Shown here: positions 1 to 20,262 of the stretch, one piece after another
Numbering within the stretch: the stretch's first letter is position 1
Layout of the letters: each line of letters begins with the position of its first letter
Sequence record: LC739530.1
Strand: one strand, 5' to 3'
Length of the DNA stretch: 64,000 nt
From: Escherichia phage phiWec172
The notes under the pieces: model-generated
Seen by the model: the letters and a program-made list of their open reading frames with translations, nothing else
What the model was told of the DNA's origin: nothing
Databases searched by the model: none
Position numbers and translations under genes: made by a program

Positions 1-47
1 CCCCCCCCCCCGTTGATTGACAATTTACAGATTTTTATCAGGCTTGT

Positions 48-281
48 CTAGTCTTTTTCAATGATAATCTCATATTGTCCATCAACACTGTCGAAATAGA
101 TTCCTTCGTCATCTTCTGTCTTAAAGTAACATTGTATATCATCACTTGCGGGATAGTCTTGCCTTGCTATCTGGCAAACTTGAACAGCATTCTCTTTACT
201 CCCTGTAAACTCCTCAAGCCCTTTAAAATCGCATGAATGGCCATTACAAATTGAGAGGATGAGATAAACGGTTGTTAGCAT
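48..281 (-). CDS. hypothetical protein
   Basis: 77-aa ORF from track; no recognisable motif. Confidence 0.3.
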   Translation of the reverse strand: MLTTVYLILSICNGHSCDFKGLEEFTGSKENAVQVCQIARQDYPASDDIQCYFKTEDDEGIYFDSVDGQYEIIIEKD

Positions 282-346
282 GATTTAAGCCCTCTAAAAG
301 CCCCTGTAAGGGGCTGATTAGTGTTTATAAGGTGATTGTATAGGTT

Positions 347-889
347 TTAAAAAAAGCTCTTTAAGTCTCTCTCTGTGATGTTTCCCGTTAGTGTATCCAT
401 GATGTCACAAAAAACCTGAATACTGTCCGACTGTTGAACACTTTTAGCGAGAAGCTCCAGAGACTCATCAAGATAGTTCATATTTGGGTTATCCAGTGAA
501 GGAAGACAAAAAGGCGAATACATCGCATTAAATTCTGTTACGTAAACCTTTTTAATCCAACTTACATCAAAGTACTCTGTAAAACTTGCTACACTCGACA
601 TATTATCACAAGAATAATCATCGTTTAGCTCATCCTCTGGAATATCGAGTTCTAAGATAACAATATTTTGAGTCTTCATCTGAAAAGCTGCGGTGATAGT
701 GGCATTGCCTAGAGCTTGTTGGATACCTTCGGCTGTTATCTCTTCCTCATCGTCGCCATAGATTTTATTTTCTGGATAAACGTAAAAATTGCCGTCCATA
801 TCCGAACAATTCCATGCGCCCGATGGTTTATCACCGTTATTAATCAGGTTGATAAAGTTTTCTTGAGTAGTACCATGAAAGCATTTCAT
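347..889 (-). CDS. hypothetical protein
   Basis: 180-aa ORF, followed upstream (890-974) by a conserved cassette and RBS. Confidence 0.4.
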   Translation of the reverse strand: MKCFHGTTQENFINLINNGDKPSGAWNCSDMDGNFYVYPENKIYGDDEEEITAEGIQQALGNATITAAFQMKTQNIVILELDIPEDELNDDYSCDNMSSVASFTEYFDVSWIKKVYVTEFNAMYSPFCLPSLDNPNMNYLDESLELLAKSVQQSDSIQVFCDIMDTLTGNITERDLKSFF

Positions 890-974
890 TTTTGAATCTC
901 CAGTTTAGGATTTAGTGGTAAAGCTCTTTATCTGGGGCTTAAGATACCAACTTTTAAGCCCCTTGTAAAGTACT
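890..974 (-). promoter_or_regulatory. Repeated intergenic cassette type A (hairpin GGGGCTTAA-11nt-TTAAGCCCC plus conserved leader with GGAGA RBS)
   Basis: Near-identical copies at 1684-1769, 2756-2843, 3240-3311; sits between stop of upstream gene and ATG of 347..889. Confidence 0.5.
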
Positions 975-1178
975 TTATTTGTTATTTTTGACAACTTTTA
1001 AAACTGCACGGTAACCTAAGCAATAAGAATCACCGAAGAGTGACCGGCCCATGAAAGATTCTTCTGTAATATCTTTCGCCGTGACAGTTTTTTCTACGCC
1101 GTGAAAGAGAACTATATCACCAACTTTAATATCTTTGATGTGAGTTGTTTCAATGTGTAAGCCGTTGATAATAGCCAT
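975..1178 (-). CDS. hypothetical protein
   Basis: 67-aa ORF directly preceded by type B cassette. Confidence 0.35.
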   Translation of the reverse strand: MAIINGLHIETTHIKDIKVGDIVLFHGVEKTVTAKDITEESFMGRSLFGDSYCLGYRAVLKVVKNNK

Positions 1179-1278
1179 TTTAGAATCTCCAGTTTAGGAC
1201 TTTATTTAGTGGGGAGGTTATCGCCTCCCCGTTGATGTGTAATTTAACCTATCTAAAAATCAGTGTCAACAAAATTTT
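1179..1278 (-). promoter_or_regulatory. Repeated intergenic cassette type B with sigma70-like promoter (TTGACA-17-TAAATT), hairpin GGGGAGG-6nt-CCTCCCC and conserved RBS leader
   Basis: Minus-strand TTGACA at about 1264-1269, TAAATT at about 1241-1246, hairpin about 1213-1232; related copies at 2043-2132 and 3693-3770. Confidence 0.4.
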
Positions 1279-1683
1279 TTAGAGTTCTGCATAAATTGCA
1301 TCACAGACATCACGAAAATCGTGATTTGTCAAATTACGTTGTAACCAAGTGGCAAAGAAATCAGCGATTGCAAAATTAGCGTCATACTCGACGGATAGCC
1401 ATACTTTAACAGCAAATCTAAACATTTTCAAATCTAACTCCCTATTCATTACCTTAGATTTGCCTAGCATATCAATCATTTCATATTGCGCACCGTCTAG
1501 CGTGATACCTGCTGCAACGTCAGCCAATGAACTTTTTACGTTTTCAACGTCTAAAATAATACTTTGAATCTTCCCAATAATGCTGTGCAATGTTTCATCT
1601 GGTGCTGATGACGTAATAACATTAATCCGGTTAACGGTCAAACGTGCTTTTAAAATTGATAATTCACGGTTATTAATAGCCAT
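1279..1683 (-). CDS. hypothetical protein
   Basis: 134-aa ORF; stop immediately abuts cassette B. Confidence 0.4.
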   Translation of the reverse strand: MAINNRELSILKARLTVNRINVITSSAPDETLHSIIGKIQSIILDVENVKSSLADVAAGITLDGAQYEMIDMLGKSKVMNRELDLKMFRFAVKVWLSVEYDANFAIADFFATWLQRNLTNHDFRDVCDAIYAEL

Positions 1684-1769
1684 TTTTAAGTTCTCCAGTT
1701 TAGGATTGAGTGGTAAAGCTCTTTATCTGGGGCTTACTTTATCGAACTATAAGCCCCTTGTAAAGTACT
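1684..1769 (-). promoter_or_regulatory. Repeated intergenic cassette type A
   Basis: Hairpin GGGGCTTAC-11nt-GTAAGCCCC (plus-strand view) plus conserved leader ...CTAAACTGGAGAACTTAAAAATG. Confidence 0.5.
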
Positions 1770-2042
1770 TTATGCTAAATGCAGCTTTTTACCTTTTACC
1801 ATGATGTAACTTGTTGCGCTATTGCTGTATACATCTTGATAAATTCTGCGCAAACGGCCTTCGTAGTATACTTTCCAGCTAGTTGGAATCTTTTTCCCGT
1901 ATCCTGTAACAGTTTTTTGGAGTCCTGCAAGTTGCCAATCTAAAATGTGTTGTTCGGCTTGTAAATCCTCGAAGTGCATTACACCGTTCACATAGTGGCG
2001 TAGGGTTACGTTTAAAGTGCGACCGTTGTTAGTAGTATACAT
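1770..2042 (-). CDS. hypothetical protein
   Basis: 90-aa ORF flanked by cassettes. Confidence 0.4.
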   Translation of the reverse strand: MYTTNNGRTLNVTLRHYVNGVMHFEDLQAEQHILDWQLAGLQKTVTGYGKKIPTSWKVYYEGRLRRIYQDVYSNSATSYIMVKGKKLHLA

Positions 2043-2132
2043 TTTTGAATCTCCTAGTTTAAGGACTTTACTTAGTGGGGAAGTTCATTCCCTCACCGTT
2101 GATTAGTAATTTACTTGTTTTAAAAACCAAAA
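2043..2132 (-). promoter_or_regulatory. Repeated intergenic cassette type B (imperfect hairpin, TAAATT -10-like box)
   Basis: Shares ...CAACGG-hairpin-...AAAGTCCTTAAACTAGGAGATTCAAAAA leader with 1179-1278. Confidence 0.35.
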
Positions 2133-2465
2133 TCAAGAGGAATTTTTTCGTTTGCTCAATTCTTGAACAATTACAACGTAATAATCTTTTAAGTCACTGA
2201 CATTCAAAGCATTTATCAGTGAATTATAATCATCGACTAACTGAAAATCATCTTTGAAGATGTCACTTATCTGATAGGTTTTCGCTTTATATCTGAAGCT
2301 CATCTCTAGCCGCTTTATTTGCTCATCACTGAGGCGTCCTAGAAAGCTCTCTACAAGGTTATTGCTAACCTGCTGTGTGATTGCCTTATTTGCTAGATTA
2401 TAGGCTTTATATGCCTTATATAGCGCGAAAATGGCAATGATTGCAGTGATACCAGTCATTAACAC
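2133..2465 (-). CDS. hypothetical membrane protein
   Basis: 110 aa; hydrophobic N-terminus MLMTGITAIIAIFALY suggests one TM helix. Confidence 0.4.
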   Translation of the reverse strand: MLMTGITAIIAIFALYKAYKAYNLANKAITQQVSNNLVESFLGRLSDEQIKRLEMSFRYKAKTYQISDIFKDDFQLVDDYNSLINALNVSDLKDYYVVIVQELSKRKNSS

Positions 2466-2755
2466 GGTGTTTCCTCTTTACGTGATACTTTGCCACTTAC
2501 AGTTATCTCATAAGATTCTAATAAATCGCTTTTAGACTTTACAGGGCTTTTAAAAGTATCATCGTAGATATTGACTTGTAATACAGGTTTTTTATATTCC
2601 CTGCAACTATTCCATAAGCAAATTACTACACGACGGCCTTTTATTTTGCCGTGTAACCATTCCATAACATCATGACTATTCCTTGATGTTTCAATAAAAT
2701 CAATTTTGTTAAGTAACTTGCTTAGATTTTCACGGGCTTTATTTGATAGTTTCAT
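2459..2755 (-). CDS. hypothetical protein
   Basis: 98-aa ORF preceded by cassette A. Confidence 0.4.
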   Translation of the reverse strand: MKLSNKARENLSKLLNKIDFIETSRNSHDVMEWLHGKIKGRRVVICLWNSCREYKKPVLQVNIYDDTFKSPVKSKSDLLESYEITVSGKVSRKEETPC

Positions 2756-2843
2756 TTTTGAAACTCCAGTTTAGGATTGAGTGGTAAAGCTCTTTATCTG
2801 GGGCTTACTTTATCGAACTGTAAGCCCCCTGTAAAGTACTTTA
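2756..2843 (-). promoter_or_regulatory. Repeated intergenic cassette type A
   Basis: Hairpin GGGGCTTAC...GTAAGCCCC plus conserved leader. Confidence 0.5.
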
Positions 2844-3239
2844 TTAGTTAATTTTGAAAATTGTCACATAGCCGTCACTGCCGATTATTTGAGACACTCC
2901 AGCTTTTTCCACTGAATAGCCCATATTTTCAAGATGATAAACAGCATCATCATAACCATATGCGCCACCCTGATAACGTCTCTTATCGCATCTTATCAGG
3001 TTTTTACCACGTCCTGCAAGTGCATGGAGAATTGTTTTTTCACTTGAAAGAGTACCATCTAACATGGTTGCCGTGTAATGGTTGATTTTATTCCCGTTGA
3101 TATCATACTTAAAATTGAACGAGTGAACAACAATTATTTTGCCGTTAAATTTTTCATCAAGCGCCTTCTCTAATACATTACGAAAATTTTCTTTATTGAT
3201 GAATTTCGGTGCGCGGTATGCCATTTTTAAGTTCTCCAA
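2844..3239 (-). CDS. hypothetical protein
   Basis: 131-aa ORF. Confidence 0.4.
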   Translation of the reverse strand: MENLKMAYRAPKFINKENFRNVLEKALDEKFNGKIIVVHSFNFKYDINGNKINHYTATMLDGTLSSEKTILHALAGRGKNLIRCDKRRYQGGAYGYDDAVYHLENMGYSVEKAGVSQIIGSDGYVTIFKIN

Positions 3240-3311
3240 TTTAGGATTGAGTGGTAAAGCTCTTTATCTGGGGCTTAAGATACTACCTTTTTAAACCCCA
3301 TGTAAAGCACT
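3240..3311 (-). promoter_or_regulatory. Repeated intergenic cassette type A (imperfect hairpin)
   Basis: Same conserved leader GTGGTAAAGCTCTTTATCTGGGGCTTAAG... (plus-strand view). Confidence 0.45.
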
Positions 3312-3473
3312 TTATGAAATAATTTTTATAAAATCTTTCATGGTTATCTTGTCGCCATTTGTTAGGGCTATGCAGTCATTATCCATCACTGACTTGTAAA
3401 GGTAGAAAACTTTCCCAATTTTTGGGTATCCGTCTAAATCTTTGTAGCTTATTACATTGCCTTCTTTAATCAT
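3312..3473 (-). CDS. small hypothetical protein (about 53 aa), below ORF-track length cutoff
   Basis: ATG-initiated frame MIKEGNVISYKDLDGYPKIGK... read on minus strand; stop overlaps end of cassette A. Confidence 0.3.
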   Translation of the reverse strand: MIKEGNVISYKDLDGYPKIGKVFYLYKSVMDNDCIALTNGDKITMKDFIKIIS

Positions 3474-3485
3474 TGTCAAGCCCTT

Positions 3486-3692
3486 TTAAACGTCATAGTA
3501 GTAAACTGCTGTATGTCTTGTAAACTGTCTTGTGTGATTTGTCAAATAACAATCTGACCTGATTGATGTATCAACATATTTATCAAAATCCTTTTCTGAG
3601 ATACGTTGCCATACATCACAAATAAGCATAAAGAAACGGCGCTTTTTAGTCTTGTTATTGTCTACAATCATCAATTGGCGTTGATATAACAT
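3486..3692 (-). CDS. hypothetical protein
   Basis: 68-aa ORF preceded by cassette B. Confidence 0.4.
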   Translation of the reverse strand: MLYQRQLMIVDNNKTKKRRFFMLICDVWQRISEKDFDKYVDTSIRSDCYLTNHTRQFTRHTAVYYYDV

Positions 3693-3770
3693 TTTAGAAT
3701 CTCCAGTTTAGGGAGTGGGCTTGCTTGCCCGTCTGATGCAAATATTACGTAAACCTGTTTTGTGTGTCAA
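3693..3770 (-). promoter_or_regulatory. Cassette type B with strong sigma70-like promoter (TTGACA-17-TAATAT), hairpin GGGC-6nt-GCCC and conserved RBS leader
   Basis: Minus-strand TTGACA at about 3765-3770, TAATAT at about 3742-3747, hairpin about 3717-3730. Confidence 0.45.
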
Positions 3771-4165
3771 TAGTTTTTATTAAATATTTTTGTAAGTTTG
3801 GGAGAGGAACGGGCGCGCACGACTACCACAAAACAGAACTACAATCAAGAATTATTTTTCAATCCGCTACAAATTTTTCTGTTGACTTTTCTTTTTAGAT
3901 GTGGTAGCCTTGTGAGAAATGGCGACATCCCCACCTACACCCACCTACCTGCACAATTCTAAAATGATTTTTCTTGCCCGACCTGATTTTTCTCTGCACG
4001 TTTTGAAAATGATTTTTCTATCCGGCGATGAGATTTTTTGGGATATCTGTACAGACCCCTCCAGATACCTGCACAAATTGAAAATGAAAAAGGCCGCCTT
4101 ACCTTAAATTTTTCAATGGGTTAGGCAGCCTTCTTAGATGATTTGTAGATACTGTGAAGTACTAA
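3771..4165. repeat. About 400-bp non-coding region with iteron-like direct repeats
   Basis: Three copies of CTGCAC(A/G)-N5-(A/G)AAAATGA at about 3949, 3995, 4069; tandem CACCTAC; GC island GGGCGCGC; no ORF with coding character (track ORF 3919..4107 looks spurious). Confidence 0.4.
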
Positions 4166-4945
4166 TCAGCTTATGAATTTGAACTTTTTAGAATACAGCA
4201 AGTAGTGAACTTCATCCTGATTTGTTGTGTAGATGTACGCTGCTGGGTAGTTATCAAAGAATACACCTTCATATCTTCCAAACGGGTCAACTGGGAACAT
4301 TTCACTGTTACACATACCCATCTCACTAACCAGAGGGTAACTAACCTCAACCTTGCCATCAACAAGCTGATAGAGGGTAACTTGATTAGTCTTCCCGTCA
4401 CTTAGCACGACACCATCATAGAATTGTGGTGCTGAGGTAGCATACTTAGTGGTAACTACACTTGCCATTGCTTCATCATAGACGTATAGGTACACATCAA
4501 CGTTATACATAACACTATTAATGAGGCTTTTCACAGCTTGTGCATCTAAACCGCCTATACCTGCCCCAATCATGGGTAAACCAATCTTACGAATGTTGTG
4601 CAGCCAGCAAAATTTACGGAGTTTTTCTAGTGACTCCACTAAGTATCGGTATGATGCACACTTCCCAACATCCAACTGTGTATATAGGTTAAAAATGTAA
4701 CCATACTCCGTTCGAGCATGTGACACCTCACCAGCCATCTGGTATCCGATATCATGGGCACTGTAGCCAAACTTTTTATGGAACTTCCGGTCAGCTTCTT
4801 CAGCTTTTGGGAAAATCTTAGCAATTTTTTGAGCGATTCCAGCACCCATGAGGTTACGACAGTTGCAACCATGAGCAATTAACTCAATGTCTGTGTTTTT
4901 GAAGGCAGCTAGTAAGTTACCTTTTACAACTTTTACAATACCCAT
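4166..4945 (-). CDS. Macro-domain (ADP-ribose-binding/processing) protein with C-terminal extension
   Basis: N-terminus VVKGNLLAAF..DIELIAHGCNCRNLMGAGIAQKIAKIFP resembles macro-domain core (compare YmdB [32 protein letters not shown]); about 90 extra C-terminal residues. Confidence 0.5.
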   Translation of the reverse strand: MGIVKVVKGNLLAAFKNTDIELIAHGCNCRNLMGAGIAQKIAKIFPKAEEADRKFHKKFGYSAHDIGYQMAGEVSHARTEYGYIFNLYTQLDVGKCASYRYLVESLEKLRKFCWLHNIRKIGLPMIGAGIGGLDAQAVKSLINSVMYNVDVYLYVYDEAMASVVTTKYATSAPQFYDGVVLSDGKTNQVTLYQLVDGKVEVSYPLVSEMGMCNSEMFPVDPFGRYEGVFFDNYPAAYIYTTNQDEVHYLLYSKKFKFIS

Positions 4946-19520: not shown

Positions 19521-20262
19521 CTTGTTGTTCAGGTAAGTTCGCTAAGCTTACCCCGCTTTATTCAAGCTGCTTACTGTCGCCAGTAAGTCCAGACTATATC
19601 TTCTACTTATTTCTAAGTAGCGTACCATTTCGAGTCGCTTGACCCTACACCGCTACATTCATCACGGTTAGTCGTTCGGCATTTAGATGTATTCAAACTC
19701 ATACTCAAAGTTATTATGCTCTTTCACACCCTTCAATATTGAAGAGATGGTCTTGCGATTGTGTCCAAGTATATTGGATAACTCTCGTATTGACTTAGCA
19801 ACAATAACTTCCTTTGTCACTTTGTGTGTGGCTTTCACGGCATATGAACGCTTTTGGAACTTGTAGCATCCGTTCTCATAACCTTCTTTAGCATTCTCAG
19901 AATGAGTACCCCATTCTAAGTTAGATGCGTGGTTATTTAGTTTGTTATCGTCCTTATGTTTTACAATTGGAAGATTATTTGGGTTAGGTACATACTTCTC
20001 AGCAACTAACCTGTGGACATACATGTCACGATTCTTCTTACCGTAAAACCTCACTTTCATATACCCAGTGTTGGATTTCCACTGCGTAAGCTCTACACCA
20101 TTTTCCCTAAAGACTTTTCCATCTTCAGTGACGTGATAGTTTGGCATGTAAGACTCCTATGTTGTATAGTTTCTTACATCGTACATCATTTAGCACAGGA
20201 TTGTCTACATATGTAGAGTTTCCCTGTTTAGGCACGTTTTAGATGAGCTATAGAGCCTGTTA
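19521..20262 (-). mobile_element. Group I intron in nrdD carrying an HNH endonuclease ORF
   Basis: Exon 1 ends in U, in-frame TAA right after; P-like AACAGGGAAAC, Q-like AAUCCUGUGC, R-like UCAAGCGACUCG, S-like AGAUAUAGUCUGG; terminal G before exon 2. Confidence 0.6.
19683..20147 (-). CDS. HNH homing endonuclease (intron-encoded)
   Basis: HKDDNKLNNHASNLEWGTHSEN HNH motif; lies inside the nrdD intron. Confidence 0.65.
   Translation of the reverse strand: MPNYHVTEDGKVFRENGVELTQWKSNTGYMKVRFYGKKNRDMYVHRLVAEKYVPNPNNLPIVKHKDDNKLNNHASNLEWGTHSENAKEGYENGCYKFQKRSYAVKATHKVTKEVIVAKSIRELSNILGHNRKTISSILKGVKEHNNFEYEFEYI

What the first reader, a model, noticed from the sequence alone, without database searches (positions are those of the whole stretch)
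890..3770. Seven copies of a modular hairpin-plus-leader cassette separating small early genes
Every intergenic gap in this block holds an 70-100 bp cassette placed between the stop of one gene and the start of the next. Type A (890-974, 1684-1769, 2756-2843, 3240-3311) has hairpin GGGGCTTAN-loop-NTAAGCCCC and the conserved leader AGATAAAGAGCTTTACCACT(A/C)AATCCTAAACTGGAG. Type B (1179-1278, 2043-2132, 3693-3770) has a sigma70-like promoter, a different GC hairpin, and the shared ...CCTAAACTGGAGATTC(T/A)AAAATG initiation region. They resemble the mobile promoter/stem-loop cassettes of T4-type phages and could drive shuffling of small host-takeover genes.
Basis: seen in the sequence. Interest (0 to 1): 0.55.

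Follow-up and report, generated by a model that had tools for sequence, protein, structure and literature searches.

The report
Promoter–hairpin–ribosome-site cassettes between early phage genes
The repeats are real: each small early gene of this Felix O1-type coliphage has a near-identical unit carrying a host-type promoter, an RNA hairpin and a ribosome-binding leader, and related phages gain, lose and reorder genes at these units, as described so far only for T4-type phages.

Summary
The window is the first 64 kb of Escherichia phage phiWec174 (Felixounavirus). All seven cassettes exist at the stated coordinates, on the minus (coding) strand, far above chance. An eighth is cut by the window start. 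Five more lie across the record junction.

It reads TTTACA, 17 nt, TAnnnT, with the hairpin filling the spacer and overlapping the -10. This holds in 60 of 60 distinct copies from three Ounavirinae genera. The type A hairpin is longer than described: about 20 bp with an internal loop, running from upstream of -35 to about +15. It shows compensatory changes, sense-strand G·U pairs and no U-tract. Type B has the promoter first, then a hairpin at the predicted 5' end of its own transcript.

Across 26 related early regions, variable ORFan genes come and go as gene-plus-cassette units. Some occupy different positions or are duplicated. 25 of 30 distinct homology breakpoints fall in cassettes, and private cassette variants are shared within single genomes.

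This matches the PeSL elements of T4-type phages feature by feature. I found no paper reporting them for Felix O1-type phages. Promoter activity, hairpin function and recombination are inferred, not measured.

The parts
3693..3770 (-). Type B cassette, first promoter of the cluster. -35 TTGACA 3765-3770; -10 TAATAT 3742-3747; hairpin GGGC-AAGCAA-GCCC 3717-3730; SD GGAG 3701-3704. Followed by ATG 3690-3692 of a 68-aa ORFan.
3225..3314 (-). Type A cassette. Bipartite hairpin 3255-3314; -35 TTTACA 3301-3306; 18-nt spacer; -10 TATCTT 3277-3282; SD GGAG 3234-3237. ATG 3222-3224 of a 126-aa ORFan.
2756..2843 (-). Type A cassette. Bipartite hairpin 2785-2843; -35 TTTACA 2830-2835; -10 TAAAGT 2807-2812; SD GGAG 2764-2767. 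ATG 2753-2755 of a 98-aa ORFan.
2043..2136 (-). Type B cassette. -35 TTGATT 2131-2136, overlapping the upstream stop codon; -10 TAAATT 2108-2113; hairpin 2074-2097; leader variant CCTTAAACTAGGAG with SD 2051-2054. ATG 2040-2042 of a 90-aa ORFan.
1684..1772 (-). Type A cassette. Bipartite hairpin 1714-1772; -35 TTTACA 1759-1764; -10 TAAAGT 1736-1741; SD GGAG 1693-1696. ATG 1681-1683 of a 134-aa ORFan.
1179..1278 (-). Type B cassette. -35 TTGACA 1264-1269; -10 TAAATT 1241-1246; hairpin GGGGAGG-CGATAA-CCTCCCC 1211-1230; SD GGAG 1187-1190. ATG 1176-1178 of a 67-aa ORFan.
890..977 (-). Type A cassette. Bipartite hairpin 919-977; -35 TTTACA 964-969; TGn plus -10 TATCTT 941-946; predicted start near A933; SD GGAG 898-901. 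ATG 887-889 of a 180-aa ORFan.
1..50 (-). Promoter half of an eighth cassette (type B): -35 TAGACA 45-50, -10 TAAATT 22-27, then GTCAATCAAC and a G-run. Its hairpin and leader continue at the far end of the GenBank record (L001 21936-21991).
   Evidence: (D7, D11)
282..346 (-). The one long junction without a cassette. It has a hairpin AGCCCC-TTAC-AGGGGCT (299-315) followed by TTTT, and its own SD GAGGG before the 77-aa gene. It is conserved in relatives as a weak terminator-like site.
48..3692 (-). Ten small early ORFan genes served by the cassettes: 3486-3692, 3312-3473, 2844-3224, 2459-2755, 2133-2459, 1770-2042, 1279-1683, 975-1178, 347-889 and 48-281.
   Evidence: Felix O1 orthologues ORF16, 20, 21 and 22 were maximal at 5 min by RT-PCR.

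Best explanation
These are self-contained early-expression cassettes of a Felix O1-type phage. They are equivalent to the PeSL elements of T4-type phages.

Each cassette gives the downstream ORFan gene three things: a host sigma70 promoter, an RNA hairpin, and a shared leader. The leader reads ...ACTNAAT..CCTAAACTGGAG-N8/9-ATG and supplies the ribosome-binding site.

Type A. The promoter is TTTACA, 17 nt, (TGn)TAnnnT. The hairpin's GC-rich 5' arm lies in the spacer and its 3' arm overlaps the end of the -10. Transcripts started here (predicted +1 at the A of CCCC-AGATAAAG) therefore lack the hairpin and carry an unstructured leader. Transcripts reading through from upstream fold the whole promoter region into a helix of about 20 bp interrupted by an internal loop.

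Type B. The promoter comes first (TTGACA-like, 17 nt, TAAATT). The hairpin starts about 10 nt after the -10, which places it at the predicted 5' end of its own mRNA.

What the hairpins do (inferred). They act in RNA. I favour end-protection or processing. Type A would be a two-turn target of the RNase III type, or a barrier to 3' exonucleases, that cuts or protects read-through mRNA. Type B would be a 5'-terminal stabiliser. I put this at about 0.45, against about 0.3 for factor-independent attenuation of upstream transcription as proposed for PeSLs.

Recombination (shown by comparison only). Because the cassettes are near-identical direct repeats of 60-100 bp, homologous recombination between them deletes, duplicates, inserts and reorders gene-plus-cassette units, and homogenises cassettes within a genome.
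For: Promoter:
- All 4 type A and 3 of the 4 complete type B copies are picked up by the consensus scan on the coding strand; the partial eighth copy at window 1-50 is picked up as well.
- In 60 distinct type A copies, the -35 is TTTACA. The spacer is 17 nt in 59 and 18 nt in 1. The -10 is TAnnnT in 60 of 60, while its three middle positions vary over 10 hexamers. 33 of 60 have an extended -10 TG. The copies come from Felixounavirus, Mooglevirus and Kolesnikvirus and were retrieved by flanks only.
- Chance matches to the same flanks have TAnnnT at 17 nt in 4 of 83, and none has a hairpin of 7 bp or more.
- The -35 to -10 distance stays at 17 when the hairpin length changes.
- Type B promoters are conserved in the same way, including those buried in the 3' end of the upstream gene.
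- Felix O1 ORF16, 20, 21 and 22, which lie downstream of such cassettes, peak at 5 min after infection.

Hairpin:
- MFE is -24 to -27 kcal/mol, z -2.7 to -4.3.
- RNAalifold recovers both stems independently.
- 96.9% of cells are paired. Covariation is 0.080 against 0.050 in shuffles (0 of 500 reach it) and 0.007-0.027 for slid controls.
- Compensatory pairs include GC to UA in the upper stem (GGTG/CACC) and in the lower stem (AGATTT or AAATTG with AGATTT).
- 103 G·U cells against 4 A·C cells means the structure fits the sense strand only.
- There is no T-tail; none is called terminator-like on the coding strand.
- The leader of a type A-initiated transcript is unstructured, z about 0.

Recombination:
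- Gene-order maps of 26 early regions show variable genes always moving with a cassette. g25 and g10 occur in both orders. g29 occurs at two positions. g13 is duplicated in L019. Mordin has a tandem A-A with no gene between.
- 120 of 139 HSP ends, or 25 of 30 distinct breakpoints, fall within 10 nt of cassettes that cover 23% of the region.
- Private variants are shared by 2-3 junctions of one genome only: SP4, REP8, VpaE1 and Tian.

Architecture: it matches the published PeSL description and the PST/T4 consensus TTTACW-N17-TAYWAT.
Against: - No transcript 5' or 3' ends, reporter data or recombination assays exist for these phages. I found none in the literature.
- Type A -10 hexamers are weak, matching TATAAT at 3-4 of 6 positions. 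T-7 is also a stem base, so part of the -10 conservation is shared with the hairpin.
- The sequences are related by descent and by conversion, so the covariation rests on a handful of independent events and the shuffle counts are not probabilities.
- The breakpoint test uses a naive uniform null. Any whole-gene indel must end in intergenic DNA, and here nearly all intergenic DNA is cassette.
- Two copies break the lower stem (L053 upstream of g7, L125 upstream of g3).
- In Felix O1, ORF17, 19 and 23 peaked at 25 min, not 5 min.
Confidence: 0.75

Rival explanations
1. The hairpins are transcription terminators or attenuators that insulate each cassette from upstream transcription. This is the original PeSL model. 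RNA-level processing or stability plays no role.
For: - The PeSL stem-loop of phi1 reduced lacZ expression as strongly as rrnB T1.
- The hairpins sit exactly between cistrons.
- The upper stems are GC-rich with 8-9 bp.
Against: - None of the 60 type A variants or the type B variants has a U-tract after the stem. The following sequence is AGAUAAAG or ACUAAAU. None is called terminator-like on the coding strand.
- The same cluster uses canonical hairpin-plus-T-run terminators where it ends (L001 about 19945-19968) and upstream (window about 4085-4135).
- An AU-rich lower stem kept by compensatory change is not needed for termination.
Confidence: 0.3
2. The inverted repeats act in DNA. They would be operator palindromes (AAAGTACTTT / AAAGAGCTTT) for a phage repressor that shuts off early promoters, or cruciform or recombinase targets.
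For: - AAAGTACTTT is a perfect palindrome and flanks the promoter on both sides.
- Arbiol et al. speculated about a DNA-binding protein at GGGG...CCCC.
Against: - In the variants AGATTTCTTTA...TAAAGAGATTT each half-site loses its own palindromy, yet the two arms stay complementary.
- 103 G·U against 4 A·C cells means the pairing works only on the sense strand. Double-stranded DNA recognition or a cruciform would not give this.
Confidence: 0.1
3. Type A is only a hairpin plus leader with no promoter. The early genes are expressed from the few type B promoters as polycistronic RNA cut at the type A hairpins, T7-style.
For: - Type A -10 hexamers are weak, at 3-4 of 6.
- The two-turn interrupted helix fits the RNase III substrate rules of helix length and internal loop.
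Against: - T-12 and A-11 lie in the loop, where everything else varies, yet they are invariant in 60 of 60 copies from three genera.
- The spacer is fixed at 17 nt.
- An extended -10 TG is present in 33 of 60.
- The -35 TTTACA is invariant.
- PST/T4 PeSL promoters have the same consensus, TTTACW-N17-TAYWAT.
Confidence: 0.15
4. The repeats are remnants of tandem gene duplication, or a selfish miniature mobile element, with no regulatory role.
For: Copy number is high and the cassettes move with genes.
Against: - The flanking genes are unrelated to each other: separate blastp clusters and separate PHROGs.
- The cassettes are always in the gene orientation, run exactly from stop codon to start codon, and keep the SD-to-ATG spacing at 8-9 nt.
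- They are confined to one cluster of the 86-kb genome.
Confidence: 0.03

Closest known systems
PeSL (promoter-early stem-loop) cassettes of T4-type phages: phi1/RB49, PST/T4 and nt-1/KVP40 (Arbiol et al. 2010, PMC2839356; Comeau et al. 2014, PMC4122927)
   Same: - Sigma70-type early promoter. The PST/T4 consensus TTTACW-N17-TAYWAT matches type A.
- G-run/C-run stem-loop with G·T pairs, placed between -35 and -10, overlapping -10, or just downstream of -10.
[quoted passage not shown]
- Dense in ORFan-rich variable regions.
- Indels, replacements and ORF displacement at the elements.
   Different: - The host phage belongs to Ounavirinae, not to the T4-type phages.
- The cassettes are much more uniform, sharing about 35 nt of leader.
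- The type A hairpin extends by a second AU-rich stem into a helix of about 20 bp that encloses the whole promoter.
- No U-tract follows the stems.
- Promoter and terminator activity and mini-circles have not been tested here.
RNase III processing sites of the T7/T3 early region, e.g. R1.1 (Pertzev & Nicholson 2006, PMC1540722)
   Same: - Intercistronic position in an early operon read by host RNA polymerase.
- About two helical turns with an internal loop. In T7 this gives single-strand cleavage and leaves a protective 3' hairpin.
   Different: - No cleavage data exist.
- The internal loop here is symmetric, 3x3.
- The hairpin overlaps a promoter.
- Proximal-box and distal-box rules were not checked.
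5'-terminal stem-loop mRNA stabilisers of the ompA type (from my own knowledge: Emory, Bouvet & Belasco 1992)
   Same: The type B hairpin begins about 10 nt after the -10, so only a few nt from the predicted 5' end of its own transcript.
   Different: The transcription start is predicted, not mapped. No half-life data exist.
T4 genes with a promoter inside a hairpin, e.g. gene e and soc (from my own knowledge)
   Same: Read-through and internally initiated transcripts differ by the presence of a hairpin arm.
   Different: In T4 the hairpin hides the SD. Here the large hairpin does not include the SD.

Membership tests
PeSL cassettes | Sigma70-like early promoter in each element | tested here: met
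   Consensus scan. -35, 17-nt spacer and TAnnnT conserved in 60 of 60 type A copies, and in type B. This is sequence evidence only.
PeSL cassettes | Stable stem-loop (often G-run/C-run, with G·T pairs) inside or next to the promoter | tested here: met
   Folds z -2.7 to -4.3. RNAalifold and pair counts with compensatory changes.
PeSL cassettes | [quoted passage not shown] | tested here: met
   all seven copies, with SD-to-ATG spacing of 8-9 nt.
PeSL cassettes | Concentrated in a variable, ORFan-rich region | tested here: met
   All copies lie in one cluster of the 86-kb genome. The proteins have no Pfam hit and fall in PHROGs of unknown function. Gene content varies among 26 relatives.
PeSL cassettes | Indels, replacements and displacements between related phages occur at the elements | tested here: met
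   25 of 30 distinct breakpoints in cassettes. g25/g10 in both orders, g29 at two positions, g13 duplicated, tandem cassette. Private variants shared within genomes. The null model is naive.
PeSL cassettes | Promoter and terminator activity in reporter assays | not testable with these tools
   Needs lacZ or GFP fusions as in Arbiol et al..
PeSL cassettes | Formation of mini-circles by recombination between neighbouring elements | not testable with these tools
   Needs inverse PCR on infected cells or virions.
PeSL cassettes | Described host range: T4-type myoviruses | tested here: not met
   The phage is a Felixounavirus (Ounavirinae). This concerns where PeSLs have been reported, not how they are built.
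Intrinsic (Rho-independent) terminator | GC-rich hairpin directly followed by a U-tract | tested here: not met
   No cassette hairpin is called on the coding strand. The tails are AGAUAAAG or ACUAAAU in all variants.
E. coli RNase III processing site (T7 early type) | About two helical turns of double-stranded RNA | tested here: met
   Type A has 9 + 5 + 6 bp, joined by a 3x3 loop and a 1x1 mismatch.
E. coli RNase III processing site (T7 early type) | Internal loop or bulge at the target site | tested here: met
   A 3x3 internal loop (CAN/AGA) is conserved.
E. coli RNase III processing site (T7 early type) | No inhibitory base pairs in the proximal and distal boxes; cleavage by RNase III | not tested
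   Box rules were not applied. Cleavage needs an in vitro assay or an rnc host.
5'-terminal stem-loop stabiliser | Hairpin within a few nt of the mRNA 5' end | tested here: inconclusive
   The type B hairpin starts 10 nt after the -10 hexamer. The transcription start is predicted only.

The most novel reading that the evidence does not exclude
The type A cassette may be a dual-entry expression unit. A two-turn processing hairpin of the RNase III type encloses its own sigma70 promoter. Read-through RNA cut in the 3' side of the internal loop (CCCC-AGA-UAAAG) would then have essentially the same 5' end and the same unstructured leader as RNA started at the embedded promoter, and the upstream mRNA would keep a protective 3' hairpin.

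In addition, the shared leader carries a small stem that occludes the SD: an anti-SD CC(U) lies 3-6 nt upstream of GGAG. This stem is kept through a linked double insertion in Felixounavirus and through CCUU/AAGG to CCUC/GAGG changes in Erwinia phages. It could be a common handle for global post-transcriptional control of all early genes, for example shut-off of the RegB or RegA type.
Probability: 0.25. Interest if true: 0.65.

Novelty: new member of a known kind. Interest (0 to 1): 0.45.

Why it matters
- It extends PeSL-type modular shuffling beyond the T4-type phages. Repeated promoter-hairpin-RBS linkers may be a general, possibly convergent, way for large virulent phages to trade small early genes.
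- It fills a stated gap for Felix O1. The genome paper listed these repeats without interpretation, did not count them among its promoters, and said that temporal control and read-through were not understood.
- Felix O1-type phages are widely used for Salmonella and E. coli typing and biocontrol. The cassettes are ready-made, naturally tolerated insertion points and expression parts for engineering.
- They also flag the ORFan set that differs between otherwise near-identical therapeutic phages.

Tried and rejected
- Rfam scan of 1-4300 at E up to 1 gave three sub-threshold chance hits and no family.
- Intrinsic-terminator reading of the cassette hairpins: no T-tail.
- Operator-palindrome reading: variants lose half-site palindromy but keep inter-arm pairing, and the G·U asymmetry argues against it.
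- Paralogy of the flanking genes as the source of the repeats: the genes fall in separate blastp clusters and separate PHROGs.
- Pfam on the ten proteins gave nothing.
- Searches for PeSL, promoter or transcriptome work on Felix O1-type phages found only the uninterpreted direct repeats in the Felix O1 paper and unlabelled 14-bp repeat_region features in the Mordin record.
- Fold of the type A-initiated 5' UTR, looking for a 5' hairpin or an alternative pairing: unstructured, z about 0.
- MAFFT misaligned the GGGGTTAT/ATAGCCCC subgroup by one column. The 9 'unpaired' cells at two upper-stem pairs are therefore artefacts.


Full report
**Identity of the window.** Window 280-4200 is 100% identical to Escherichia phage phiWec174 (LC739531.1, 85,991 bp, Felixounavirus, Ounavirinae). 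The window is the first 64 kb of that record.

**The observation.** It is confirmed.
- The 20-mer AGATAAAGAGCTTTACCACT occurs four times exactly, against 0.01 expected.
- CCTAAACTGGAG occurs six times with at most one mismatch, all between 898 and 3712.
- It occurs five more times in the remaining 22 kb of the genome, all in the continuation of the same gene cluster across the record junction.
- Window 1-50 is the promoter half of an eighth cassette.
- Minor corrections: the fourth type A copy ends at ATG 3224, not at the TTG at 3239. Three junctions (3480-3485, 2459-2465, 282-346) have no cassette.

**Anatomy on the coding strand: type A.** The order is: stop codon, AAAGTA, CTTTACA, N, GGGGCTTA, loop, TAAGCCCC, AGATAAAGAGCTTTACC, ACTNAAT, CCTAAACTGGAG, 8-9 nt, ATG.
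- TTTACA is followed after 17 nt (18 in one copy) by TATCTT or TAAAGT. The consensus scan finds all four copies as promoter-like sites at 9 of 12 matches.
- The GC stem stands on a second stem, AAAGTACTTTA/TAAAGAGCTTT, separated from it by a 3x3 internal loop.
- The whole structure spans window 919-977, 1714-1772, 2785-2843 and 3255-3314. It folds at -24 to -27 kcal/mol, z -2.7 to -4.3.

**Anatomy on the coding strand: type B.** The order is: TTGACA or TTGATT, 17 nt, TAAATT or TAATAT, 4 nt, ATCAAC (ATCAGAC in the 3693-3770 copy), a GC hairpin, ACTAAATAAAGT (absent from that copy), then the same leader.

**Is type A a promoter?** I retrieved copies by their flanks only (CTTTACA, N29-33, GATAAAGAG) from IMG/VR and from GenBank relatives.
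- In 60 distinct copies from Felixounavirus, Mooglevirus (Citrobacter phage Mordin) and Kolesnikvirus (Erwinia phage Tian), the -10 is TAnnnT in 60 of 60.
- The spacer is 17 nt in 59 of 60.
- The three inner positions of the -10 vary over ten hexamers.
- 33 of 60 have TG at the extended -10 position.
- T-12 and A-11 are the only invariant loop positions.
- Chance matches to the same flanks in unrelated contigs have TAnnnT at 17 nt in 4 of 83, and none has a hairpin of 7 bp or more.
- When the hairpin is one base shorter, the -35 to -10 distance is kept and the distance from -10 to AGATAAAG changes.
- So both cassette types are promoter cassettes.

**Is the hairpin real, and on which strand?**
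- RNAalifold on the 60 sequences returns the same two stems.
- For the named structure, 96.9% of cells are paired. The covariation score is 0.080 against 0.050 in shuffles (0 of 500 reach it) and 0.007-0.027 when partners are slid.
- Double changes occur in the upper stem (GGGG/CCCC to GGTG/CACC; C-G to U-A) and in the lower stem (G-C to U-A, where AGATTT or AAATTG upstream goes with AGATTT downstream).
- Wobble pairs are G·U in 103 cells and A·C in 4. The structure therefore works on the sense strand only, which points to RNA rather than double-stranded DNA.
- Caveat: the sequences are related, and only a handful of independent substitutions underlie these numbers. Two copies break the lower stem.

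**What the geometry implies (inference).**
- With +1 about 7 nt after the -10, type A transcripts start at the A of CCCC-AGATAAAG. They lack the hairpin, and their leader is unstructured, z about 0.
- Only read-through RNA from upstream folds the two-turn helix.
- Type B transcripts start a few nt before their own hairpin.
- No cassette hairpin has a U-tract. The cluster is nevertheless bounded by canonical terminators: window about 4085-4135, homologous to Felix O1 t13, and L001 about 19945-19968, identical to Felix O1 t23.
[quoted passage not shown] There, single cleavage leaves a protective 3' hairpin.
- I therefore favour processing or end-protection over termination for the hairpins, but this step is not shown.

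**Gene shuffling.** I mapped ORFs, protein clusters and cassette types in 26 Ounavirinae early regions. The conserved order is:

P g20 (g33) A g1 A (g13) A (g18) A g7 g8 B (g49) g0 A g2 B (g25)(g10) A g3 T g4 B (g34 A)(g35 L)(g29 A g42 A) g5 .. g9 B (g23 B) g11 T

Here P is the first promoter, A and B are the two cassette types, L is a leader-only junction, T is a terminator-like junction, and genes in brackets are variable.
- The bracketed genes are present or absent together with one cassette.
- g25 and g10 occur in both orders (L073 against L031).
- g29 sits after g4 in Mordin and L019, but at the start of the cluster in L029 and L072.
- g13 is duplicated in L019.
- Mordin has two type A cores in tandem with no gene between them.
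- blastn of the phiWec174 cluster against 25 relatives places 120 of 139 internal HSP ends, or 25 of 30 distinct breakpoints, within 10 nt of cassettes that cover 23% of the region. The uniform null is naive, because nearly all intergenic DNA here is cassette.
- Independent of that null, private cassette variants are shared by two or three different junctions of a single genome and by no other phage. These are SP4 CCCCG (three junctions), REP8 GGGGTTTA/TAAACCCC (two), VpaE1 TACCTT (two) and two pairs in Tian. Each orthologous junction also carries several hairpin families among close relatives. This is the signature of exchange between cassettes.

**Context.**
- The ten proteins in the window have no Pfam match and fall in ten different PHROGs of unknown function.
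- In Felix O1, RT-PCR found ORF16, 20, 21 and 22 of this cluster maximal at 5 min, and ORF17, 19 and 23 maximal at 25 min.
- Type A occurs in 286 phage records at about 4.8 places each. These include Erwinia phages, at 78% identity.
- Type B occurs in 252 records.

**Comparison with what is known.**
- Arbiol et al. describe PeSLs as strong sigma70-like promoters plus a stem-loop, often a G-run followed by a C-run, with G-T pairs. The stem-loop is placed most often between -35 and -10 or overlapping -10, or just downstream of -10. [quoted passage not shown]
- Comeau et al. give TTTACW-N17-TAYWAT for PST/T4 PeSL promoters and report insertions, deletions, replacements and an ORF displacement at PeSLs.
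- Every sequence-level feature is met here. Reporter activity and mini-circles cannot be tested with these tools.
- PeSLs have been reported only in T4-type phages, and I found no paper applying the concept to Felix O1-type phages.
- The Felix O1 genome paper lists the 57-bp and 39-bp direct repeats between genes 15/16, 19/20, 18/19 and 20/21 without interpretation. It does not include them among its predicted promoters.
- The Mordin record marks 14-bp repeat_regions before the ribosome-binding sites, without a note.

**Verdict.** It needs one addition (type A is also a promoter, with a longer hairpin) and one reservation (host-takeover function is unverified). This is a new member of a known kind, of moderate interest. 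The less certain and more novel parts are the promoter-enclosing two-turn RNA helix and the conserved SD-occluding mini-stem.

Noticed in passing
window 1-11 and L001 21980-21991 (record ends of LC739531.1): The record starts with a C-run and ends with a C-run. Joined, they put about 22 G into the stem of a type B hairpin that reads GGGGAGGGAATGACCTTCCCC in its paralogues and in relatives. This is probably an assembly or circularisation artefact at a homopolymer, not biology.
   Followed up: partly
window 887-912, 1176-1201, 2040-2068 and all other cassette leaders; L010 (Erwinia phage Tian) early leaders: A 3-4 bp mini-stem pairs an anti-SD CC(U) with the SD: UCC-UAAACU-GGA. The two leader forms CCTAAACTGGAG and CCTTAAACTAGGAG differ by linked insertions on both sides, and no intermediates appear in about 155 leaders. 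Tian has CCUU-AUA-AAGG and CCUC-AAA-GAGG. The stem is present in 95% of cassette leaders and 10 of 13 Tian early leaders, against 8% of other SD-bearing genes in the window. Its function is unknown.
   Followed up: partly
window 3771-4165: A 400-bp non-coding spacer lies upstream of the first early promoter. It holds three direct repeats of about 43 nt (plus strand CTGCACAAnTnnAAAATGAttttt, D4) and, at about 4085-4135, the terminator of the preceding macro-domain/phosphatase operon, the homologue of Felix O1 t13. The repeats are conserved in relatives. They could be binding sites for a regulator.
   Followed up: no
L001 18230-19990 (record 82,230-83,990): A 1.7-kb non-coding region lies just downstream of the early cluster. 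It has 11 tandem copies of AACGCTCTAT and dozens of CTTGTTAG/CTGTTAAG motifs. In phage Pr103Blw the annotated 581-bp direct terminal repeat lies in the equivalent place. It is probably the genome terminus or packaging region.
   Followed up: no
L001 20854-21072 (record 84,854-85,072): A long spacer lies upstream of the 176-aa gene. It has two overlapping TTGACA motifs, a hairpin CCCCTTGACA...CGAGGGGG and then a complete type B cassette. Relatives have spurious 40-60-aa ORF calls here.
   Followed up: no
L001 20310-20345 and window 2131-2136: Some type B promoters lie inside, or overlap, the 3' end of the upstream coding sequence. TTGACG-17-TAAATT sits in the last codons of the 176-aa gene, and TTGATT overlaps the TGA stop at 2133-2135. 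The cassette boundary is therefore not strictly the intergenic space.
   Followed up: partly
L001 21415-21460 and 21608-21686: These are degenerate cassettes. One is a type A copy lacking ACCACTAAAT. The other is a 46-nt junction that keeps only AGATAAAG... and the leader. They are likely footprints of past recombination.
   Followed up: no
search results: Single records labelled Campylobacter phage A132 and a Staphylococcus phage carry a cassette; for A132, the only one listed, identity is about 90%. Given the Enterobacteriaceae-specific phage group, they are probably mislabelled or contaminated records.
   Followed up: no
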